A stretch of DNA of 29,989 bases from Nannocystis pusilla (GTDB lineage Bacteria > Myxococcota_A > Polyangia > Nannocystales > Nannocystaceae). Both the position numbers and the translations under genes were made by a program. Where the stretch lies: positions 1 to 29,989 of the forward strand of contig NZ_JAIRAU010000047.1 of NCBI RefSeq assembly GCF_020073745.1. The letters run 5' to 3'. This document shows positions 5,235-23,516 of this stretch, in pieces. A model generated the notes under the pieces. The model ran no database searches and was not told the DNA's origin. It was given only the letters and a program-made list of their open reading frames with translations. How positions within the stretch are numbered: position 1 is the first letter of the stretch; each line of letters opens with the position of its first letter.

Positions 5235-6386
5235 TCAATACACCCCGGGGATGATCCGCCAGCGCACCCGCCGCTCGTACTGCTGCCACAGCGCCCCGTA
5301 CTTGGCGCGGCAGCGGCGGTCGTCGTCGATCTGCCGCGGCACCAGCAGCACCACGTAGTACAGCGGATACAGCCACGGCCCCGGCTCGCCCGGGTAGCCG
5401 AGCGACAGCGCCAGCGCGGTCGCCATCGTCATCTCGCCCAGATAGTTGATGTGCCGCGACAGCCCCCAGAAGCCGCTCACCAGGATCTTCTTCTCGCCGT
5501 CGGTCAGCACCTCGGGCGCGATCGACCCGAACGCCAATTTCTCCGGCTGCGTCTTGAACCAGAACTTCTGCATGTTGGCCCCGCGCGCCAGCATCCACCC
5601 GGCGAAGAACAGCGCCGCGCACAGCCCCAGCAGCGGCGCCGGCGTGTGCGGATTGGCCAGCTCCGCCGTCGTCCACAGGCCAACCGCGTAGAAGAACGGG
5701 TAGAACGTCAGGCAGCCCCAGCCGAGCTTGAAGCCGACGCGCTCGGCCACGAAGTCGTAGGTGTAGAGGTGCACCTCCTCGAAGTTGAGGTACTCCCACA
5801 GGAAGAACGAGAACAGCGCCACGTGCAGCAGCACGCCCGGCGACGGGTCGCCAGGGTACGCGAGCAGGTGATGGGCCGCGAACGACAGCAGGTTCAGCTG
5901 CAGCATCACCGCCCCGATCAGGTACAGAAACATCTTGGCGTCGACGTGGCCGTCGAGCCACTGCGGATTGGCCAGGCGTCCGAGGTACAGGTCCGCCAGA
6001 AAGCCGCGCCGCGGCGCCGCCGGCAGCACGATCGCCAGCGTGAACAGCAGCCCCAGCCCGCACGCCGTCGCCAGCGTCGCCTCGCGGTGCACGTACAGCC
6101 AGTCCCACGGCGCCAGCCCGGTCGCCCCGGCGACGAAGTACAGCGCCACCGTCAGCGCCATCACTCGCAGCCCGTTGAGCCGGTAGCGCAGCGGCGCTCC
6201 GCTGGCCTCGTCGCGCACGTAGCCGGTCACGCGGCGGCCCGGCACGATCAGGTGGAGCACGAACACCAGCCCGTAGAGGGCGATCAGCGCGAATGCGGGC
6301 GACACGGCCCAGGCTACGAGACCGCGGCCGCGCCTGTAAAGCCTCGGCGCGTGCGCTCCGGCTCGACCCGTGCCAAGCTCGGGCAT
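5235..6386 (-). CDS. Sterol reductase of the DHCR7/ERG4/ERG24 family (7-dehydrocholesterol reductase-like).
   Basis: The C-terminal signature LVSGFWGLSRHINYLGEM..YYVVLLVPRQIDDDRRCRAKYGALWQQY aligns by eye to the human DHCR7 C-terminus (LLVSGFWGVARHFNYVGDL..RDEHRCASKYGRDWERY). It has multiple TM helices. The ATG at 6386 (MPELGTGRAG) is preceded by GAGGA; an alternative GTG lies at 6305. Confidence 0.8.
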   Translation of the reverse strand: MPELGTGRAGAHAPRLYRRGRGLVAWAVSPAFALIALYGLVFVLHLIVPGRRVTGYVRDEASGAPLRYRLNGLRVMALTVALYFVAGATGLAPWDWLYVHREATLATACGLGLLFTLAIVLPAAPRRGFLADLYLGRLANPQWLDGHVDAKMFLYLIGAVMLQLNLLSFAAHHLLAYPGDPSPGVLLHVALFSFFLWEYLNFEEVHLYTYDFVAERVGFKLGWGCLTFYPFFYAVGLWTTAELANPHTPAPLLGLCAALFFAGWMLARGANMQKFWFKTQPEKLAFGSIAPEVLTDGEKKILVSGFWGLSRHINYLGEMTMATALALSLGYPGEPGPWLYPLYYVVLLVPRQIDDDRRCRAKYGALWQQYERRVRWRIIPGVY

Positions 6387-6891
6387 GCCCCGTCCTCGCG
6401 CCGCCCTCGTGCTGTCCGCCTGCCTGTTCGTTTGCGCATGCTCCAAGGGCCAGGTAGAGCCGACCGACCCCGGCGGCGGCGGCAAGGTGTGCACCGAGAT
6501 CGGCTGCATCGGCGGCCTGCGCGTCGAGCTCCAGTCGGCCAGCGGCTGGGCGCCGGGCGAGTACACGTTCAGCTTCGCGCTCGACGGCGCGCCCGTCACC
6601 TGCACCGGCTCGCTGCCGCTGCGCGCCTGCGACGCGGGCCCCTCGCTCGCCTGCGACGTCCCGGACCGCGTGCAGATCGGCGAATCCGGCTGCGCCTTGC
6701 CGCCCGAGCAACATGGCTTCGCGGACATCCTGGTGCCGAGCAGTCCCGCCAGGCTCGATCTGGCGATCCGCCGCGACGGCCAGCAGCTGTGGGCCGGCGA
6801 GCTCGCCCCGACCTACGTCGAATCGCAGCCCAACGGGCCCGGGTGCGAGCCGATCTGCCGCGGCGCGACCGCCCAGGTGGCGCTCCCGTGA
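6385..6891 (+). CDS. Small Cys-rich secreted lipoprotein, 168 aa.
   Basis: MPRPRAALVLSACLFVCAC is a signal peptide with a lipobox. GC3 is excellent through to the stop at 6889-6891. The ATG at 6385-6387 overlaps the CAT (6384-6386) that gives the ATG of the divergent sterol reductase, inside GGGCATGCCC. Confidence 0.7.
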   Translation: MPRPRAALVLSACLFVCACSKGQVEPTDPGGGGKVCTEIGCIGGLRVELQSASGWAPGEYTFSFALDGAPVTCTGSLPLRACDAGPSLACDVPDRVQIGESGCALPPEQHGFADILVPSSPARLDLAIRRDGQQLWAGELAPTYVESQPNGPGCEPICRGATAQVALP

Positions 6892-16198: not shown

Positions 16199-16252
16199 GA
16201 CCATGCCCCGGAGGGCATGCCCGAACGAACATGCCCTTTCAAGCATGCCTCA
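16199..16252. repeat. Four decamers: GACCATGCCCC, GGGCATGCCC (16213-16222), GAACATGCCC (16227-16236), AAGCATGCCT (16241-16250).
   Basis: It lies between the convergent stops at 16196 and 16250. Confidence 0.7.
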
Positions 16253-17380
16253 AGGGCAAGCCACGACCTGCACCTCGTAGCTGAACGGCTGGGGCACCCC
16301 GTCCACCTGCACCGTGTAGGTCTTGCCGGCCTCGCTGACCCAGCCCTGCGGCGTCATGGCGATCGCGCTGCTCGAGCCGAACCCGCCCTGCAGGGTCGTC
16401 AGCTTGACCGGCTTCTCGACCCCGTTCTCGCGGATCGTCACCTGGGCCGCGCCGACGTCGATCTCGTCGCTCTGGATCGTCCACCCCGTCTCGTCGACGT
16501 CGGCCCACGGCACCTCGGGCACGTGGATGGCCGCCAGCGGCACGATCCCCGGGGGCGGCCACGCCGTCCACTCGGCGCCCGCGCCGGCCTGGCCGCCGAT
16601 CACCCACATGCACGAGTTGACCGACGTCGAGCCGAGCCCGATCGGCCCCAGCGACCGCGAGAGGATCCACCGCCGGTGGCCGAACGTCGTCGCGTTGCCC
16701 GGGTCGACCATGTAGAGGTCGACCGCGACCACCCCGGGCGTCGCCGAGATGTTGCTGTTCATCGCCGCCTGCGCCCCCTCGGCCGTGTAGCAGGCCCACA
16801 TCACGTCCGGGTCGTGCGACAGCATCCCCTCGGCGTGCATCATCAGCGCGCACTGCTGCGCCTTCGCGTTCAGCCCGGCGTCGTGGCCGACCGGCGGCAG
16901 CCCGGCCAGCCAGCGGTACAGGTTGACCAGCCGCAGCGCGTTGTCGCGGCCGGGCGCCCCGGTGTCGCCGGCCGTGCAGCCCGCCACCGCCCCGCTCCAT
17001 GTCCCCTCGGACATGTCCGATCGGTCCGCCGCCCAGCGCTCGCACACCGCCGCGACCGGGTCGACCGGCTCGCCCGTGGTCTCGCCCGCCGTGCCGGTGC
17101 TGTCCGGCGGCCCGGTGTCGATCGGCCCCGTCGACGTCGACGGCGCGTCCGGCCCCGTGGCGGTCGGCTCCGGCAAGCTCGTGGCGGTCGGCGCCGGCGC
17201 GTCGCCCGTGCTCGTCGTCGCCGCCGTCGTCGTCGGCCCGCTCGCCGCCGTCGCCTCGCTCGCCGCCGTCGCCGTCGAATCTGTACTTTCGGCCATCCCC
17301 GATCCGCGGTAGCAGCTCACCACGAACACGGACGCGAGCGCGACGGCCGCGCGACGATCGACACGACGAGACGGCGACAT
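16250..17380 (-). CDS. CAP/SCP (cysteine-rich secretory protein / PR-1-like) domain lipoprotein with a Thr/Ala/Pro-rich linker and a C-terminal beta domain.
   Basis: The ATG at 17380 gives MSPSRRVDRRAAVALASVFVVSC (lipobox). The CAP core is NALRLVNLYRWLAGLPPV..AQQCALMMHAEGMLSHD. Confidence 0.8.
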   Translation of the reverse strand: MSPSRRVDRRAAVALASVFVVSCYRGSGMAESTDSTATAASEATAASGPTTTAATTSTGDAPAPTATSLPEPTATGPDAPSTSTGPIDTGPPDSTGTAGETTGEPVDPVAAVCERWAADRSDMSEGTWSGAVAGCTAGDTGAPGRDNALRLVNLYRWLAGLPPVGHDAGLNAKAQQCALMMHAEGMLSHDPDVMWACYTAEGAQAAMNSNISATPGVVAVDLYMVDPGNATTFGHRRWILSRSLGPIGLGSTSVNSCMWVIGGQAGAGAEWTAWPPPGIVPLAAIHVPEVPWADVDETGWTIQSDEIDVGAAQVTIRENGVEKPVKLTTLQGGFGSSSAIAMTPQGWVSEAGKTYTVQVDGVPQPFSYEVQVVACP

Positions 17381-17412
17381 CTCGCCCCGAATACGACCGG
17401 CCGGCGCGCCCG

Positions 17413-19740
17413 TCAACCCGGCGCCGGCGCGGTCTTGCGGCTCTCGGCGACGATCCGCACCAGGTCGGCCTCGTCCTCGCACAGCGCGACGATGAGGTCG
17501 CCCGGCGCCACCGCCTCGTCGGGCCGCGGGTTGACGATGAGCCGTCGGCGCAGCTCCGCGTGCGACGACCCGCCCGCCGGCACCTTCCCGCCCGGATCCG
17601 CCGCGCGGTACAGCCCCAGGGGCACCGCGCCCCCGCGCCCTTGCACCTCGAGCAGCGCGCGCCGGACCTTGCGCCACGGCTGTCCGATCAGCCAGGTGGG
17701 CGCCGGCGCCGTGTACACCTCGGCGTTGTCGTCGGCGAACGCGACCACCCGGTTGAACAGCTCCGCGAACGCGCGGTCGCGGCAGGCCATCACCAGCCAG
17801 CGGTGCGCCAGCGCCTGGCAGTCGACCGGCACCAGCCAGCCCGCGAACGGCGAGAACACCTCCTCGCGCTCCGCGTCGGACGTCTCCACCAGCGTCACCG
17901 GCAGCGCCGGCGCGGTGCGGGCGATCTCGACCGACGTCGCCGCCACCCCCAGCGTGCGCGCGCGCTGACCTCCGCCCACCGGATCGCGCGCGCACGCCTG
18001 ATGGACCGCGCGGGCGATCCGCAGCGGATCGTAGCCCTCGCCGCCCGCGTCGCCGTCGCCGAGCACGATCACCCGCGCCGCCCGCGGCAGCCGCAGCCCG
18101 GCCAGGTCCTCCGGCACCTCGGGGTTCGAGTGGTGGATCGTCAGCGCCTTGACCCGCGCCAACTGCAGCCGCACGCGCCGCGGCAGCGCGTCCGAGACCA
18201 CCACGTGCAGCGCCCGCGTGCGCGTCGGCCCCGGGCTGCGCAGCAGGCGGATCAGCGGCAGCATGTCCTCGCGGAAGTTGAGCACCACCAGGTGGTGCTT
18301 CAGCCGCCGCCACAGCCGCGTCTGCTCCTGCGCGAAGATGTTGGTCAGCGTCGCCGTGAACCACGCGAGCAGGCCGAGCCCGAGGATCGTCGCCGCCGCC
18401 CCGACCAGCCGCGCCGTCGGCGTCTTCAGCGTGTCGGTGGTGAAGTTGCCGGTGGCGAACGTGTTCATCTCCCAGAACGAGTCGTTCAGCGTCCGCAACC
18501 TGGCGTTCGAGTCATGTTCTAGAGACCAGACGATGAACGTCGACAGCGTCACCACGCAGGCGAACGCCGCGAACGGCACCAGCGGGTTCGACAGCTGGCT
18601 CTCGAGCCCGGCCCCCGGGACCCGGCGGCGGCGCAGCGCCCGGCGGATCAGGTACAGCGCCAGCCCGAGCGCCGCCGCCGACGCCCCCGCCTGCAGCCAC
18701 GCCGTCCGGCGCTCGCTGGTCTCGTGGATCTCCGCCACCGGGTGGAGCGGGATCGGCTCGCGCTCGGCGAAGCCGCGCCACTCGACGTTCACCCCGAGGC
18801 CCGCGTACTGCTCGTCGCGCTCGAGCTTGCGCAGCCCGTGGATCATCGCCTCCACCGCCAGCCGGCGGTCGGCCAGGAACGCCTCGTCCGCCAGACGCTC
18901 GCGCGGCGTCGCCATCAGCACCACCGAGCTCACGCACACCGTCGGCAGGCTGAACTCGAGGCCCGGATAGGTCCCGGTCTCGATCGGGCAGATCCGGTAG
19001 TACGGGTAGCCGTCGATCAGCCGGTTCAGCACCGCCTCGGGCAGCGGGTTCAGCGTCGCCAGCCCCGACGCCAGCACGTCGCGGATCTCCGCGTGTCCGA
19101 GCTCGGTGGTGCGCAGCATCGTCAGCACCTCGCGGCGGCTCATCGCCACCAGCGCCTCCTGGGCGCTGCCCATGAACAGCGGCAGCGACTCCGCCGTGTG
19201 CCCCGCCGCGCCGAGGATCACCTTCGCCGTCTCGTAGCTGCCCGAGCCGTCCTTGCCCATGAACAGCGCCTCGCGGCCGATGTCGGTGAAGTCGTCGAGC
19301 CGGACCGGCCGGCGCACCAGCACGTGGACCGCCGCGTCGGTGACCGCCGCCACCACCTGCAGTTCGGCCTTGTCGGCCTCCTCCGGCGACAGCTTGCACA
19401 TCCACCCGCCCTTCGGCGTCGCGCCGCCGCCCGCGCCGGCGTCGGCCTGCCCGGCCTTGTACGCCTCCGCGGCCACGTCGTACTGCACCAGCGCCACGTC
19501 GAGCTCGCCCGACAGCAGCTTGTGCACGTTCTCGCACGACCCCTTGGTCGTCTCCGGAACCACCGTCACGCGGCCCTCGCCGCGGACCGCCTCGGCCAGC
19601 GCCCGGACCATCGCGTCGAACCCGCCGCCCTTGCTGCCCGAGCCGAAGCGGACCTCGATCGCCTCGCCGGCCCGCGCGCTGCCTGCCTGAAAGAGCATGC
19701 CCACGAGGACAGGCCCGAACAGCCATGTCCGCTTGAACAT
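17413..19740 (-). CDS. Fusion protein: TAXI-family (TRAP-associated) solute-binding domain, then transmembrane pore module, then tandem RCK-like domains; a putative ligand-gated ion channel.
   Basis: Signal MFKRTWLFGPVLVGMLFQAGSARA. TAXI-like RFGSGSKGGGFDAMVRALAEAV. TM helices flank a pore-helix-like FWEMNTFATGNFTTDT (compare K-channel FWxxxTxTTVGYGD). Rossmann-like HLVVLNF.. and HVVVSD.. domains follow. The first ATG is at 19740; a TTG at 19770 is an alternative. Confidence 0.8.
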   Translation of the reverse strand: MFKRTWLFGPVLVGMLFQAGSARAGEAIEVRFGSGSKGGGFDAMVRALAEAVRGEGRVTVVPETTKGSCENVHKLLSGELDVALVQYDVAAEAYKAGQADAGAGGGATPKGGWMCKLSPEEADKAELQVVAAVTDAAVHVLVRRPVRLDDFTDIGREALFMGKDGSGSYETAKVILGAAGHTAESLPLFMGSAQEALVAMSRREVLTMLRTTELGHAEIRDVLASGLATLNPLPEAVLNRLIDGYPYYRICPIETGTYPGLEFSLPTVCVSSVVLMATPRERLADEAFLADRRLAVEAMIHGLRKLERDEQYAGLGVNVEWRGFAEREPIPLHPVAEIHETSERRTAWLQAGASAAALGLALYLIRRALRRRRVPGAGLESQLSNPLVPFAAFACVVTLSTFIVWSLEHDSNARLRTLNDSFWEMNTFATGNFTTDTLKTPTARLVGAAATILGLGLLAWFTATLTNIFAQEQTRLWRRLKHHLVVLNFREDMLPLIRLLRSPGPTRTRALHVVVSDALPRRVRLQLARVKALTIHHSNPEVPEDLAGLRLPRAARVIVLGDGDAGGEGYDPLRIARAVHQACARDPVGGGQRARTLGVAATSVEIARTAPALPVTLVETSDAEREEVFSPFAGWLVPVDCQALAHRWLVMACRDRAFAELFNRVVAFADDNAEVYTAPAPTWLIGQPWRKVRRALLEVQGRGGAVPLGLYRAADPGGKVPAGGSSHAELRRRLIVNPRPDEAVAPGDLIVALCEDEADLVRIVAESRKTAPAPG

Positions 19741-19765
19741 GCCCTTGGGGGCAGGCCCGCTCCGC
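19686..19765. repeat. Decamer cluster GAGCATGCCC (19693-19702), AGCCATGTCC (19721-19730), GAACATGCCC (19736-19745) plus GGGGGCAGGCCC; it overlaps the start and signal-peptide codons of the channel gene.
   Basis: It is directly visible. The codons in this segment include several rare ones (CCT, ACA, TTT, GCA). Confidence 0.6.
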
Positions 19766-19921
19766 CTCAACCTCCCACCTCCGCGCCCTCGTCCCGGCGC
19801 TGCCGACCCCGCGCGGGTCCCCTGCGCGTCGAGGCTGCCGCGCGCCTGCGGGCTCGCGCGCCCGTCGCGTGCCCGATCGGCCGTGTCCTCGCCGACACGC
19901 TCTGCGAAGCCCTGCGCCCCG

Positions 19922-20635
19922 TCACTCCGCCTCTCCCGTCAGCACCAGCAGCGCGCTGGCGTCGCGCAGGGGCCGGCCCGGGGCCGGGCTCAGCAGCATC
20001 GCCGGCTCTGCCCCCTCACCCGGCGCGAACAGCCCGATCAGCGTCACCGGGCGCCCGCAGCGGTCGACCTCGATCTCGAGGCAGGCCTCGCGGAACGTCC
20101 GCGCGCGCAGCTCCGGCGGCACCGGCCAGGTCTCGGCGCGCAGGCGGCCGGACAGCAGCGCCAGCATGAAGCGGAACGCCCCGAGGTCGACGCACGCGTG
20201 GGCCAGCAGGGCCGCGCGCAGGAAGCCCGGGTAGAAGATCGTCGCCACCCCGAGCCCCTCGAACTCGTGGGTCGCCTCCGGGTCCTCGACCGCCACCACC
20301 ACGTGCGGCGGCCCGCCCTTGCACGCCCGCTGGATCGCCGTGCACACCAGGCGCGAGAACGCGTCGGTCTCGCCGTGCCCGCGCAGCGGCAGCACCACGA
20401 TCGCGTCGGCGGCCGGCAGGTCGGCCGTGTCGGCGAAGAAGCGCGCCAGCGCCTCGACCCCGCCGCTCGCCGATCCCTGCCAGTACCTTTCGACATGTCC
20501 TTCGGGCAAGCTCGCCAGCGCCGGCGCCACCGCCTCCGCCGGCGCCGGCCCGATCAGCGTCAGCGCCGGGCGCGGCTCCGCGGCCGCGATCGCGCGCACC
20601 AGCCCCAGCGCCTCCGGCGTCCAGTGAATCACCAC
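19922..20635 (-). CDS. Stand-alone RCK/TrkA-like regulatory domain protein, paralogous to the C-terminal part of the adjacent channel.
   Basis: VVIHWTPEALGLVRAIAAA..HVVVAVEDPEATHEF resembles the RCK regions of the 17413-19740 gene. The GTG start at 20635 is inferred; the ORF is open to 20947, but the upstream part is Ala/Gly-rich low complexity. The stop at 19922 is clear. Confidence 0.5.
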   Translation of the reverse strand: MVIHWTPEALGLVRAIAAAEPRPALTLIGPAPAEAVAPALASLPEGHVERYWQGSASGGVEALARFFADTADLPAADAIVVLPLRGHGETDAFSRLVCTAIQRACKGGPPHVVVAVEDPEATHEFEGLGVATIFYPGFLRAALLAHACVDLGAFRFMLALLSGRLRAETWPVPPELRARTFREACLEIEVDRCGRPVTLIGLFAPGEGAEPAMLLSPAPGRPLRDASALLVLTGEAE

Positions 20636-21075
20636 CCAGCGCGGCCGAGACGGCCCTGCAGGCGCCGTGGCGAGCTCCTCCGCCGCAGCCGCCGTGTCCC
20701 CGCGATCCGTCACGCCGGCGCGAGCGTCCGCCCGCGCGCCGCCGCCTGTCAAGCCGCCCGCGCCTTTCGCCGTCGACACCATGTCCGCCCGGACAGCCGC
20801 CCAGCGTGCGCGGTGCATCGGCGCGACTTCCGTCGGCCGCCGCTCGCCGCCTGAAGGTGAATTCACCGCACCGCCGAGTCTCCGTCTCTTCGCGGGCGAC
20901 CGCGCTGCCGCCCCGCGGACGGCAGCGGCCGCGCCCCGCTCGGTCACGCCCTGCCTCGCGTGCCTGCTCGGCCGCGTGCTAGCGTCGCCGCCTGCGTTCC
21001 ACCGAGCTCCTCGCGCTGGCGCTCATCGCGCTGGTCTCTTTCGGCCTCAGCTACATCGGCGCCACCGTCGGCCTC

Positions 21076-21783
21076 GTGCTCGGCCAGCTGCGGGTGGCCC
21101 TCCTCGTCTACGTCCTCGGCAGCCCGGTGATCGGCGCCGCCACCAGCCTCGCCATCTCGACCGCGGGCACCCTCACCGGCACCCTGCGGCACGCCCGCGA
21201 GGGCCGCGTCAGCCCGTGGCTGCTCGCCACCGTCGGCGCGCCCTCGGCCCTGGCCGCCTTCCTCACCGCGCGCTGGGCCGGCAGCATCGACGCCCGCGCG
21301 CTCAAGGCCGCGATCGCCGTCGTCCTGCTGCTGACCGGCCTGAGCATGTCACGTCGCCGGCCCGAGCCCACCGGTCCTTCGGAACATGTCTCTTCACGCA
21401 GCTTCGCCGTCGCCGCCGAGGTCGTCGTCGGCACCGCTCTCGGCGCGATCTCGGGCCTCGTCGGCCTCCTCCTCGGCAGCCTGCGCCTGCCGGCGATGAT
21501 CCGCTACGCCCGCGTCCCGCCGCCCGTGGCCGTCGGCACCAACATGGCGATCGGCGCCGTCACCGGGCTGTCGGCGGGCGTCGCCACCTTCCTCGAGGGA
21601 CAGGTCCACTTCGGCGCCTTCGCGGTCGTCACCCCGCTCACCCTGCTCGGCGCCAACCTCGGCGCCCGCCGCACCGGCCGCCTCGACGAGGCCAGCCTGC
21701 GCCGCTGGATCGCCTGGATCCTCCTGCTCTCCGCCGCCCTCATGCTCGGCGAGCTGGGCGTGGCCCTCTACCGCGCCGGCTGA
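21076..21783 (+). CDS. TauE/SafE-family (DUF81) membrane exporter.
   Basis: It is a multi-TM protein with the conserved glycine-rich first helix IGATVGLVLG and the paired motif in the second half (VAVGTNMAIGAVTGL). The first canonical start is the GTG at 21076, but the conserved helix is encoded upstream in the same frame (open from 20983), so the true N-terminus is uncertain. Confidence 0.65.
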   Translation: MLGQLRVALLVYVLGSPVIGAATSLAISTAGTLTGTLRHAREGRVSPWLLATVGAPSALAAFLTARWAGSIDARALKAAIAVVLLLTGLSMSRRRPEPTGPSEHVSSRSFAVAAEVVVGTALGAISGLVGLLLGSLRLPAMIRYARVPPPVAVGTNMAIGAVTGLSAGVATFLEGQVHFGAFAVVTPLTLLGANLGARRTGRLDEASLRRWIAWILLLSAALMLGELGVALYRAG

Positions 21784-21841: not shown

Positions 21842-22981
21842 ATGGCCCCGAATTGGAAGGCGCTGGCCCCTCACCGTCCGCTCGATCCGGGCGAGGCCGG
21901 CTACGTCTCCCCGCCCTCCGGCTACGCCGAGCGAGTCGCCCGCCTCGTCGAGACGGGAACTTCGACCGTCCTGGTCGGCGGCCCGGTCGGTGTCGGCAAG
22001 AGCACCGAGCTCGCACGGATCGCCTCGCTCCTCCGAGACACGCGCGTCGCCTGCCTGGTGCAGCTCGACCGTTATGAAAACATCCGTCGCCTCACCGCCG
22101 ATCAGATGCTCCTTCGGCTGGCCGGAAAAATTGTCGAGTACGCCAGCGCCACGCTCCGGATCCGCCCCTCGATGTCGCTCGTCGCCGCATTGAGCGGCGC
22201 GGGTGTGGCCTCCCCGAGCGTCCTCGGTGGCATGCAAATGCCAGCCGCGCCGTTCACGGGCAGTCCGCTCTCGCTCCTGCAGGCGGCCCGCGACGAAGTC
22301 ACACGCCGCGCGCATGGTCTTCGGCTCGCGGTGATTTGCGACGGGCTCGAGAAGATGCCCGAATCAGCCCAATCGCTGGAGGTGCTTGCGACCCTCGGCC
22401 AGCTCGGCGACGACATCGACATCATCGCTGCCGTGCCATGGTTCGTCGCCTTCGGAGCCGCGGAAGACATCATCCGTCCCGGCGCTTTGTTCGCGCCCGT
22501 GCCCGTGTGCGAAGTCGATGGCCCGCAGGGGCCGCGTGGCTGCCGATTCCTCGCAGACATCCTGGCAGAGCGGCTCGGGATGACCCCAGGAGCGTTGGCC
22601 GCGGCCGAGAGAGCCAGACCGGGGCTCGCGCAGGTCGTGGAGCTCGCACGATGGAGCGGCGGGCTTCCGCGCACATTCCTACAACTCGCGGCGGACGCCG
22701 CTCAGTACGCCCAGATCCGCCGCGGTGACGACTGGCCGGACGAGCGAGACCTCGCCGACGCCGTCTCTGACCAGAGAGACAGCTTCCGGCGCGCCCTGCT
22801 ACCGGGCGACACGGACGCGATCCGTGCCGTGCAGGGCACCGATGGGCGAGAGATGGAGTTGGACCGCAAGATCCGCCTGCTCGCGCGCGGCATCATCCTC
22901 GAGCGCCAACGCGGCGACCGCTGGGTGATGGACGTCCACCCGCTCGTCCTCCAACTCCTCGGGGGCTCGCGCGGTGCGTGA
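21842..22981 (+). CDS. P-loop NTPase, 379 aa.
   Basis: Walker A is VLVGGPVGVGKSTE and Walker B is LRLAVICDGLE. The N-terminal NWKALAPHRPLDPGE..Y resembles the N-termini of STAND / archaeal-ATPase-type AAA proteins. It is the first gene of the coupled operon. Confidence 0.8.
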   Translation: MAPNWKALAPHRPLDPGEAGYVSPPSGYAERVARLVETGTSTVLVGGPVGVGKSTELARIASLLRDTRVACLVQLDRYENIRRLTADQMLLRLAGKIVEYASATLRIRPSMSLVAALSGAGVASPSVLGGMQMPAAPFTGSPLSLLQAARDEVTRRAHGLRLAVICDGLEKMPESAQSLEVLATLGQLGDDIDIIAAVPWFVAFGAAEDIIRPGALFAPVPVCEVDGPQGPRGCRFLADILAERLGMTPGALAAAERARPGLAQVVELARWSGGLPRTFLQLAADAAQYAQIRRGDDWPDERDLADAVSDQRDSFRRALLPGDTDAIRAVQGTDGREMELDRKIRLLARGIILERQRGDRWVMDVHPLVLQLLGGSRGA

Positions 22982-23516
22982 ACCCGGCGTCGCCCTCGCC
23001 GGCGCGCTCGCGCGCGACGAGGGCGGCCTCGCCATCGTCACGTGCCCCGATCTCGACCTGCGCGACTGGCTCGTCCGCGAGGTCGAGAGCCTCGCGCCCA
23101 CCGACGCCGACCCCTTTCGCACGAGCTCCGTCGCCGACGCGCTGCGCGAACCGAACCGCATGGCCTTGCTCGTCCCGAACGACGAGGCCGAGGTCGTGCG
23201 CGACCTCGACGCCTGCCGCGACCAGGCGCTGAACCCTCCGCGCACCCAGCCGATCGTCCTCTTCTTGCTCCGTCAGGGGGACGGCCACCGCGTCCTCGCC
23301 ACCGAGGCGCCGAGCGCCTGGAGCTGGGCCAGCGGCAGCGACGTCGACCCCGAGAAGCTCGCCGAGCTCGACATCGACGCCGAGCGCGCGGCCTTCGAGC
23401 AGGACACCGGCAGCGCCCCCGAGGCGTGGCTCGTGCCCTGGCGCGCAGGCCGGCTCCCGCGCACCCAGGAGAACTACACGCAGGCGTTCTGGGCCATGAC
23501 GCTGGAGCGGTCATGA
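22974..23516 (+). CDS. Hypothetical protein, 180 aa; its start overlaps the upstream stop.
   Basis: The GTG at 22974 overlaps the TGA at 22979-22981. Codon bias is excellent throughout. Confidence 0.7.
   Translation: MREPGVALAGALARDEGGLAIVTCPDLDLRDWLVREVESLAPTDADPFRTSSVADALREPNRMALLVPNDEAEVVRDLDACRDQALNPPRTQPIVLFLLRQGDGHRVLATEAPSAWSWASGSDVDPEKLAELDIDAERAAFEQDTGSAPEAWLVPWRAGRLPRTQENYTQAFWAMTLERS

What the first reader, a model, noticed from the sequence alone, without database searches (positions are those of the whole stretch)
17413..20635. TAXI-type solute-binding domain fused to a pore module with a TGNF filter and RCK domains, plus a stand-alone RCK-like partner: candidate ligand-gated channel
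The 775-aa protein has, in order, a signal peptide, a TAXI-family periplasmic binding domain, an anchoring TM, an outer helix, a re-entrant segment FWEMNTFATGNFTTDT (resembling a K-channel pore helix and filter, but with TGNF in place of TVGYG), an inner helix, and two Rossmann-like RCK-type domains. The gene immediately upstream on the same strand (19922-20635) encodes a free-standing paralog of the RCK region. Fusions of a binding protein to a pore are known for glutamate-receptor-type channels (GluR0). I am not aware of a TAXI-type equivalent, and the filter sequence suggests non-K+ selectivity.
Basis: inference. Interest (0 to 1): 0.7.

Follow-up and report, generated by a model that had tools for sequence, protein, structure and literature searches.

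The report
Binding-protein-capped MthK-like channel with partner
A myxobacterial gene annotated only as a transporter's solute-binding subunit most likely encodes an ion-channel subunit with an outward-facing nutrient-type sensor and an inward-facing regulatory domain, and the gene just upstream supplies a free copy of that regulatory domain; this combination does not appear in the literature I could search.

Summary

The upstream gene (19922-20635, probably starting at 20713) is a free-standing RCK paralogue, detectable only by profile comparison (E 4.8e-9 and 8e-20). It sits directly upstream in every clade locus with enough flank, often overlapping the channel start by 1-4 nt.

Best model: a tetrameric channel whose eight-RCK gating ring combines four tethered and four partner RCKs, as MthK does through an internal start codon. 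Four tethered TAXI domains would act as the external ligand sensor.

The TGNF clade is confined to Nannocystaceae. Relatives with recognisable Ion_trans_2, Slo-like_RCK and Castor_Poll_mid domains occur in Acidobacteriota and Planctomycetota. All are annotated as TAXI subunits or hypothetical. Ligand, selectivity and gating are untested.

The parts
19669..19740 (-). Start codon (ATG 19740) and predicted Sec signal peptide, residues 1-24 (MFKRTWLFGPVLVGMLFQAGSARA|GE)
   Evidence: Read from the sequence: K/R n-region, hydrophobic core, A-R-A motif. No signal-peptide predictor was run. The 775-aa start matches NCBI protein P0001.
18727..19668 (-). Periplasmic TAXI-family solute-binding domain, residues ~25-338
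   Evidence: TIGR02122 88.6 bits against cut-off 84.35. PF16868 E 2.5e-22. 1us4 and 8u79 phmmer E ~1e-16. Foldseek 1us4 E 1.6e-18, target-normalised TM-score 0.78. pLDDT above 90.
18628..18720 (-). TM0 anchoring helix, residues 341-371 (hydrophobic core 348-364), followed by the basic cytoplasmic loop IRRALRRRR
   Evidence: Helix 2-32 of the C-terminal model. Hydropathy peak, and 6 K/R in the TM0-M1 loop.
18517..18582 (-). M1 outer helix, residues 387-408
   Evidence: Helix 48-69 of the model with pLDDT about 92. Kyte-Doolittle peak 2.13. Aligns to MthK and KcsA M1.
18421..18489 (-). Pore helix (residues 418-429) and filter loop (430-440) carrying the invariant FWEMNxFATGNF motif and a conserved acidic residue (D436)
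   Evidence: F422, W423, M425, F428, A429, T430, G431, N432 and F433 are invariant in 33 homologues. Helix 79-90 plus loop 91-101 in the model. Weak sequence hits to KvAP (E 0.02) and Lig_chan (E 0.061).
18307..18420 (-). M2 inner helix, residues 441-478
   Evidence: Helix 102-139 of the model. Kyte-Doolittle peak 1.89. GLGLLAWFTA is invariant.
17413..18303 (-). Single cytoplasmic MthK/CASTOR-type RCK domain (Rossmann N-lobe, helix crossover, C-lobe), residues 480-775, plus the stop codon
19922..20713 (-). Partner gene: soluble free-standing RCK-type paralogue. The conserved core is 19922-20635 (237 aa); the probable start is the GTG at 20713 (263 aa).
   Evidence: GC3 0.96. About 100 homologues, none with a Pfam domain. 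hhalign against the channel C-terminus: 96%, E 4.8e-9, 228 columns. hhalign against distant relatives' RCK region: 99.2%, E 8.3e-20. Top PDB profile hit is the DMI1 RCK domain, E 0.0027. Directly upstream of the channel gene in every clade locus with enough flank. The N-terminus matches P0121.
21076..21783 (+). Divergently transcribed TauE/SafE-family anion transporter gene. It is a conserved neighbour; its functional link to the channel is unknown.
   Evidence: PF01925 E 1.1e-33. Found upstream and divergent in about 30 of 39 genome loci, and in L001 and L006.

Best explanation
Architecture (shown by computation). The 775-aa protein is a subunit of a tetrameric P-loop (MthK/KcsA-fold) cation channel. 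A cleavable signal peptide exports a TAXI Venus-flytrap binding domain to the periplasm. TM0 brings the chain back into the cytoplasm. M1, the pore helix, the TGNF loop and M2 then form a pore in normal K-channel orientation. A single MthK/CASTOR-type RCK domain hangs below the pore.

Partner (homology and linkage shown; assembly inferred). The upstream gene encodes a soluble, diverged copy of that RCK domain and is often translationally coupled to the channel gene. I infer that four partner RCKs join the four tethered RCKs in a hetero-octameric gating ring. MthK builds the same ring with soluble RCKs made from an internal start codon (Met107).

Gating (inferred). An intracellular ligand of the RCK ring opens the inner M2 gate. 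That ligand is unlikely to be NAD: the dinucleotide glycine motif is replaced by N-F/W, where MthK and DMI1 have G-W. The four tethered TAXI domains bind an unidentified periplasmic small molecule and modulate the pore from outside, probably by docking on the turret and outer mouth. Only one tether links each TAXI domain to the membrane, so an iGluR-style pull on the gate helices is unlikely.

Output (inferred). Ion flux or a change in membrane potential in response to an external solute, conditional on the internal state. Selectivity is unknown. The filter lacks the K+ signature.
For: TAXI membership.

Topology: three hydrophobic spans and positive-inside loops.

Channel fold:
- C-terminal AlphaFold model with pLDDT 86.7 and pTM 0.74.
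- Foldseek top hits are full-length MthK, E ~2e-12 over ~390-417 columns.
- Weak direct sequence hits to KvAP/KCNQ pores and Lig_chan.
- Transitive homology: distant relatives found with the C-terminal profile carry Ion_trans_2 (14 of 63), Slo-like_RCK (54), Castor_Poll_mid (43) and TrkA_N (34).

Selection on the pore: the pore-helix/filter motif is invariant across homologues that are 45-90% identical overall.

Partner:
- Profile homology to the whole RCK region and to the DMI1/CASTOR RCK domain.
- Adjacent on the same strand in every TGNF-clade locus with enough upstream sequence.
- Overlaps the channel start by 1-4 nt in L001, L003 and L006.
- Absent from four loci of non-TGNF relatives. 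One of these, L048, encodes a ~1000-aa form, and those forms appear to carry additional (tandem) RCK regions: they give three matched stretches, and P0237 hits several RCK-type Pfam families.

MthK precedent for four soluble RCKs: PMC2154359.

No TRAP membrane gene in the window.
Against: - Nothing here is experimental. Conduction, selectivity, both ligands and the stoichiometry with the partner are all inferred.
- The protein's own pore and RCK regions fall below every curated Pfam and NCBIfam threshold. The channel call therefore rests on a predicted structure and on transitive homology.
- The filter lacks both glycines of GYG, so a conducting filter of known geometry cannot be assumed.
- AlphaFold may impose a familiar channel fold on a three-helix membrane segment. 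The first, shallower alignment gave pLDDT of only 40-50 in this region.
- Only a monomer was modelled. Neither the tetramer nor the ring with the partner was tested.
- A single tether between TAXI and the pore gives no obvious mechanical coupling.
- Single-RCK relatives without a partner gene exist (L005, L046, L047), so a partner is not universally required.
Confidence: 0.6

Rival explanations
1. It is an RCK-gated channel only. The TAXI domain is not a gate; it serves another purpose, such as periplasmic localisation, assembly, capturing a solute for another system, or slow modulation. Opening would be controlled solely by the cytoplasmic RCK ring.
For: Only one polypeptide link (TAXI C-terminus to TM0) connects sensor and pore, unlike the multi-linker iGluR design. 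Pore+RCK relatives without any detectable TAXI domain exist (for example P0243 at 357 aa and P0276 at 365 aa), so the module works without it.
Against: TAXI is retained in 55 of 63 distant relatives across phyla and is duplicated in tandem in some genera. Residues that align to ligand-contacting S75 and Q93 of VcGluP are invariant here as S68 and Q86, which argues for a working binding site that is functionally tied to the pore.
Confidence: 0.2
2. It is a non-conducting receptor. The pore module has degenerated (TGNF replaces the filter) and serves only as a tetramerising membrane scaffold. It would pass TAXI ligand occupancy to the RCK/partner assembly, which signals to an unknown cytoplasmic target.
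For: The filter lacks the K+ signature. The protein's pore and RCK regions are too diverged for Pfam. The partner protein could act as a releasable output.
Against: The pore helix and filter loop are the most strictly conserved stretch of the protein, which fits a functional permeation path better than a scaffold. No output domain is present in the channel or the partner. RCK domains are known as regulators of transport proteins (established knowledge).
Confidence: 0.12
3. It is a binding-protein-dependent solute uptake system. The tethered TAXI domain would hand its organic ligand to the fused membrane module for translocation, by analogy with TAXI-TRAP and the recently proposed TAXI-GltS systems.
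For: All characterised TAXI proteins serve transporters. TAXI-transporter fusions exist (TAXI-GltS). A TauE anion transporter gene is a conserved neighbour.
Against: The membrane module models as a 2-TM P-loop channel with an RCK domain, not an elevator-type or other carrier fold. No DctQ/DctM or GltS gene is in the window. A P-loop pore is not known to carry organic acids or amino acids (established knowledge).
Confidence: 0.06

Closest known systems
MthK (Ca2+-gated K+ channel of Methanothermobacter; RCK-gated 2-TM channels such as Kch and GsuK)
   Different: MthK has a TVGYG filter and no extracellular domain, and it makes its soluble RCK from an internal start codon of the same gene. Here the filter is TGNF. 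A TAXI domain and TM0 precede the pore. The soluble RCK is a separate, strongly diverged gene that BLASTP cannot detect.
CASTOR / POLLUX / DMI1 plant nuclear-envelope channels
   Different: The plant channels have four predicted TM segments, tandem RCK1-RCK2 in one chain and no extracellular binding domain. The filter Asp proposed to be critical in CASTOR (D265) has no equivalent here (Ala). The register of the two filters was not established.
GluR0 / ionotropic glutamate receptors
   Same: A periplasmic-binding-protein-fold sensor fused to a tetrameric P-loop pore. There is a weak Lig_chan hit here (E 0.061) and significant Lig_chan hits in 3 of 63 relatives. The nearest TAXI structure, 1us4, was deposited as 'putative GluR0 ligand binding core'.
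   Different: iGluR binding domains are SBP_bac_3-type, are split (S1/S2) around the pore, and sit on an inverted pore (established knowledge). Here the TAXI domain is contiguous, joined by a single tether through an extra TM0, the pore has K-channel orientation, and an RCK ring is present.
TAXI-TRAP transporters and TAXI-GltS
   Same: The same family of binding domain. S68 and Q86 align with ligand-contacting S75 and Q93 of glutamate-binding VcGluP.
   Different: No DctQM or GltS partner is present. The fused membrane module is a channel fold. The key Tyr (VcGluP Y45) is Phe here, and four invariant Cys residues plus an insertion are specific to this family.

Membership tests
TAXI family solute-binding protein (TIGR02122 / PF16868) | Score above the curated family thresholds | tested here: met
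   TIGR02122 88.6 bits against 84.35. PF16868 80.3 bits against 27.
TAXI family solute-binding protein (TIGR02122 / PF16868) | Two-lobe Venus-flytrap fold matching solved TAXI structures | tested here: met
   Foldseek against 1us4, 8u79, 9ibo and 8s4j: E 1e-16 to 1e-18, target-normalised TM-score 0.75-0.78. pLDDT above 90.
TAXI family solute-binding protein (TIGR02122 / PF16868) | Works with a TRAP (DctQM-type) membrane component | tested here: not met
   No DctQ/DctM gene in the 30-kb window. The domain is fused to a channel-fold module instead.
Tetrameric P-loop cation channel (KcsA/MthK fold; Ion_trans_2 superfamily) | M1, re-entrant pore helix, loop and M2 fold, with the P-loop entering from the outer face | tested here: met
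Tetrameric P-loop cation channel (KcsA/MthK fold; Ion_trans_2 superfamily) | Significant sequence match to a curated channel model | tested here: inconclusive
   The protein itself gives only Lig_chan E 0.061 and KvAP E 0.02. Relatives reached with its profile hit Ion_trans_2 (14 of 63) and Lig_chan (3 of 63).
Tetrameric P-loop cation channel (KcsA/MthK fold; Ion_trans_2 superfamily) | Four-fold assembly and ion conduction | not testable with these tools
   Only monomer prediction was available. There is no electrophysiology.
K+-selective channel | T-V/I-G-Y/F-G signature filter | tested here: not met
   The filter is F-A-T-G-N-F-x-x-D/E, invariant in the clade. Distant relatives have S-G-L/F-E-D.
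RCK domain (MthK / Slo / CASTOR type) | Rossmann N-lobe, helix crossover and C-lobe fold directly after the inner helix | tested here: met
RCK domain (MthK / Slo / CASTOR type) | Assembly into an octameric gating ring | not testable with these tools
   Inferred from one RCK per subunit plus a strictly co-located free RCK paralogue and from the MthK precedent.
KTN/TrkA-N nucleotide-binding RCK | GxGxxG dinucleotide-binding motif after beta1 | tested here: not met
   The channel has VVLNFREDM and the partner has VV(I/V)NWxPEA at that position. This parallels the G-W-S-D/E of DMI1 in the alignment.
CASTOR/POLLUX/DMI1 channels | Tandem RCK1-RCK2 in one polypeptide and an ADS(A)GNHA filter | tested here: not met
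   Single RCK: about 290 of 505 CASTOR ring residues align. The filter is ATGNF without the Asp.
Ionotropic glutamate receptor / GluR0 | SBP_bac_3-type ligand-binding domain split as S1-M1-P-M2-S2, with an inverted pore | tested here: not met
   The TAXI domain is contiguous at residues 25-338. TM0 restores K-channel orientation. No SBP_bac_3 hit.

The most novel reading that the evidence does not exclude
This would be an independent invention of a binding-protein-gated ion channel, unrelated in design to iGluRs. A TAXI sensor tethered through an extra helix controls a non-K+-signature P-loop pore from outside. A hetero-octameric RCK ring, built from tethered domains and separately encoded partner domains, controls the same pore from inside. 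The channel would then act as a coincidence detector, converting an extracellular metabolite signal into ion flux or a membrane-potential change in myxobacteria. It may be functionally paired with the conserved divergent TauE anion transporter.
Probability: 0.35. Interest if true: 0.8.

Novelty: new variant of a known kind. Interest (0 to 1): 0.62.

Why it matters
If confirmed, this extends ligand-gated tetrameric channels to a second, structurally different way of attaching a periplasmic binding protein to a pore. The sensor is contiguous, has a single tether and sits on a non-inverted pore. That bears directly on how iGluR-type gating could have evolved.

It also adds a new partner class for TAXI proteins. 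The current literature treats them as transporter subunits and calls even a TAXI-GltS fusion unprecedented.

It would also be a natural example of an RCK ring assembled from two different genes on a 2-TM channel.

On the practical side, hundreds of database entries across Myxococcota, Acidobacteriota and Planctomycetota are annotated as 'TAXI family TRAP transporter solute-binding subunit' or 'hypothetical protein', and they probably need re-annotation. The proteins are small, modular targets for cryo-EM and for engineering ligand-gated channels.

Tried and rejected
- BLASTP of the upstream protein against the channel found nothing significant (best E 0.42). Only profile-profile comparison revealed the relationship.
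- Pfam and NCBIfam on the channel's pore and RCK regions, and on the partner, gave no hits above threshold.
- The first full-length AlphaFold run with 33 close homologues gave an unusable membrane region (pLDDT 40-50). A Foldseek search with that model was swamped by binding-protein hits. Re-modelling the C-terminal 436 residues with 67 sequences, including distant relatives, fixed this.
- I first suspected that the ~1100-aa homologues were fusions with the partner. They are tandem double-TAXI forms.
- I considered filing the protein as a CASTOR/POLLUX family member on the basis of the G-N filter resemblance and the PDB hits. I rejected this because there is one RCK, not two, and the filter Asp is absent.
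- Six literature searches for a TAXI-channel or SBP-RCK fusion found nothing relevant. Ger et al. 2010 (PMC2950845) mentions neither TAXI nor RCK.
- The listing of cluster members returned almost no names or organisms for the distant relatives.
- A context look-up for P0014 found no record.
- My regex-based filter census over the 150 representative hits was too crude: 97 were unclassified. I used it only qualitatively.
Full report
1. WHAT IS THERE

The window is high-GC (about 72%) and comes from Nannocystis pusilla or a very close relative. The target protein is 100% identical to NCBI protein P0001. The ORF 17413-19770 (-) is present. Its ATG at 19740 gives the 775-aa product that NCBI annotates. 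GC by codon position is 0.73/0.50/0.97, the pattern of a real gene in this genome. The upstream ORF also has coding composition from about 20650 downwards (GC3 0.96 for 19922-20635). Comparison with the sister-strain protein P0121 (MTERGDTAAAEDFATGLPGPTRPRWVVIHW...) indicates that the real start is the in-frame GTG at 20713, giving 263 aa.

2. THE N-TERMINAL HALF IS A TAXI BINDING DOMAIN

- Residues 13-336 score 88.6 bits on TIGR02122, above its curated cut-off of 84.35.
- Residues 33-336 hit PF16868 at E 2.5e-22.
- The nearest solved relatives are the glutamate-binding TAXI proteins of Thermus (1us4, 8u79) and Vibrio (9ibo, 8s4j), by sequence (E about 1e-16) and by fold (E 1.6e-18, target-normalised TM-score 0.78).
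- The domain is modelled with pLDDT above 90.
- The first 24 residues look like a Sec signal peptide ending in A-R-A. This is read from the sequence; no predictor was run.

I aligned the domain to 1us4. The VcGluP paper describes the 1us4 binding site as almost identical to that of VcGluP. On that alignment:
- ligand-contacting S75 and Q93 of VcGluP correspond to S68 and Q86 here, and both are invariant in the family;
- the key Tyr45 is Phe41;
- the position of Tyr200 is Arg210.

Four Cys residues (C69, C115, C251, C269) are invariant. An insertion at roughly residues 97-120, ending in GGWMC, is absent from 1us4. The binding site therefore looks functional, but the ligand cannot be named.

3. 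THE MIDDLE IS A P-LOOP PORE IN K-CHANNEL ORIENTATION

Hydropathy shows three membrane spans: about 348-364, 387-408 and 441-470. There are 6 K/R in the loop after the first span and 4 after the last. Since the TAXI domain is exported, TM0 runs out-to-in, M1 in-to-out and M2 out-to-in. The segment between M1 and M2 therefore enters from the outside, as in KcsA and MthK, and opposite to iGluRs.

Direct sequence evidence for a channel is weak: Lig_chan E 0.061, and KvAP and KCNQ pores at E 0.02-0.1.

A model of the C-terminal 436 residues, built on 67 sequences, is confident (mean pLDDT 86.7, pTM 0.74, membrane region 85-94). In protein numbering it shows:
- TM0, residues 341-371;
- M1, residues 387-408;
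- a 12-residue pore helix, residues 418-429;
- an 11-residue loop, residues 430-440;
- a long M2, residues 441-478.

The stretch F422-W-E-M-N-x-F-A-T-G-N-F433 is invariant across homologues that are otherwise only 45-90% identical. An acidic residue always follows at position 436. The loop has the same length as a K+ channel P-loop but lacks both GYG glycines. The K+-selectivity signature is therefore not met, and selectivity is open.

4. THE C-TERMINUS IS ONE RCK DOMAIN, NOT TWO

After M2 the model runs through six beta-alpha units, a helix-turn-helix crossover and a smaller alpha/beta lobe.

- The isolated single RCK domain of MthK (about 220 aa) aligns over the entire cytoplasmic region (target-normalised TM-score 0.64-0.73).
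- The dinucleotide motif GxGxxG is replaced by N-F-R-E in the channel and N-W-x-P-E in the partner, at the position where DMI1 has G-W-S-D.

5. THE UPSTREAM GENE IS A FREE RCK DOMAIN

BLASTP sees nothing (E 0.42), and neither Pfam nor NCBIfam hits it. A profile of 29 homologues gives much clearer results:
- it aligns over 228 columns with the whole cytoplasmic region of the channel family (96% probability, E 4.8e-9);
- it aligns over 231 columns with the RCK region of distant relatives (99.2%, E 8.3e-20);
- its best PDB hit is the RCK ring of DMI1 (E 0.0027). The channel's own profile gives the same top hit (E 0.019).

6. LINKAGE

In 39 loci from species-representative genomes plus metagenomic loci, every TGNF-type locus with enough upstream sequence has the partner gene directly upstream on the same strand. 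In L001, L003 and L006 the partner overlaps the channel start by 1-4 nt. In the Nannocystis genus the spacer is 33-184 nt. A TauE/SafE gene lies divergently upstream of the pair in about 30 of the 39 genome loci, and in L001 and L006.

7. WIDER FAMILY

An exhaustive profile search with the C-terminal module found 293 representatives at E <= 1e-3. Of 63 distant ones examined:
- 55 carry the TAXI domain;
- 54 carry Slo-like_RCK;
- 43 carry Castor_Poll_mid;
- 34 carry TrkA_N;
- 14 carry Ion_trans_2.

The architecture is therefore widespread, and the Nannocystaceae proteins are a divergent branch. Distant relatives have S-G-L/F-E-D in the filter position. They occur in Acidobacteriota and Planctomycetota MAGs. 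They are monocistronic with no partner gene (L005, L046, L047, L048). The ~1000-aa forms appear to carry extra RCK regions: they give three matched stretches, and P0237 hits several RCK-type Pfam families. Some short relatives lack TAXI altogether. The TGNF clade itself was found only in Nannocystaceae and related Myxococcota. Some marine genera have two TAXI domains in tandem.

8. MECHANISM

Shown by computation: the domain order, the topology, the fold assignments, the paralogy of the partner and its strict linkage to the channel gene.

Inferred: four subunits form the pore. Four tethered RCKs and four partner RCKs form an octameric gating ring. MthK does this with soluble RCK made from Met107 (PMC2154359), and Slo and CASTOR do it with tandem RCKs (PMC6697748). 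The ring gates M2 in response to an unidentified cytoplasmic ligand. The TAXI domains sense a periplasmic solute and modulate the pore from outside. With a single tether this is probably by docking, not by pulling. The rivals are an RCK-only gate, a non-conducting receptor and a solute uptake system; they are weighed in the rival section.

9. COMPARISON WITH KNOWN SYSTEMS AND NOVELTY

The protein works most like MthK with an added external sensor. It is related at superfamily level to CASTOR/POLLUX/DMI1 and to Slo. It is only analogous to GluR0. It fails defining features of K+-selective channels, of CASTOR-type channels, of iGluRs and of TAXI-TRAP systems (see the membership table).

I found no paper describing a TAXI-channel fusion. 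Recent TAXI papers treat TAXI proteins as transporter subunits. The searchable library omits much of the subscription literature, so prior description cannot be excluded. I rate this a new variant of a known kind. Its interest lies mainly in channel evolution and gating, and in correcting a systematic mis-annotation.

Noticed in passing
window 21076-21783 (+); L001 1708-2481; L006 2077-2853; L007-L043 upstream regions: A TauE/SafE (TSUP-family anion transporter) gene is divergently transcribed from the partner+channel pair in about 30 of 39 genome loci (41-96% identity). This suggests a shared regulatory region and possibly a functional link, for example a sulfonate- or sulfite-type ligand for the TAXI domain.
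   Followed up: partly
P0011-P0015, P0030 (Enhygromyxa, Plesiocystis, Pseudenhygromyxa); loci L031, L037, L044: Some marine Nannocystaceae carry a version of about 1100 aa with two TAXI domains in tandem ahead of the same pore and RCK, which would give eight binding domains per presumed tetramer.
   Followed up: partly
window 18727-19668 (-), protein residues C69, C115, C251, C269 and ~97-120: Four invariant cysteines (possibly two periplasmic disulfides) and a Gly/Ala-rich insertion ending in GGWMC are specific to this TAXI subfamily. They are absent from the solved glutamate-binding TAXI proteins. The insertion has low pLDDT.
   Followed up: no
window 19741-19921 (intergenic, - strand): In this genome, and in the Nannocystis genus generally, the partner and channel genes are separated by 33-184 nt. 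In other genera they overlap by 1-4 nt. Nothing was searched for in the spacer.
   Followed up: no
P0237, P0238, P0241, P0242 etc. (L048); P0243, P0276: The wider superfamily includes forms of about 1000 aa with additional RCK-like regions (three matched stretches). It also includes forms of about 360 aa that begin directly with the pore and lack TAXI. Together these form a natural series of modular variants.
   Followed up: partly
window 5235-6728 (-); L001 6410-6970; L003 1217-1999: A sterol-reductase-type gene (ERG4/ERG24, E 5.7e-47) lies in the window. ERG2/Sigma1R-like and Steroid_dh/DUF1295 genes lie near the channel in two other loci. This fits sterol metabolism in this bacterial group.
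   Followed up: no
window 16250-17350 (-): The gene immediately downstream of the channel encodes a CAP/cysteine-rich-secretory-family protein with a Thr/Pro/Ser-rich linker. The 704-aa ORF listed at 16250-18364 is an artefact of the long open frame overlapping the channel gene: GC3 drops to 0.52 upstream of about 17350.
   Followed up: partly
window 21842-23516 (+): An AAA_16/AAA_22-type ATPase gene (21842-22981) is followed by an overlapping Pfam-less 180-aa ORF (22974-23516). The function is unknown and there is no evident link to the channel.
   Followed up: no
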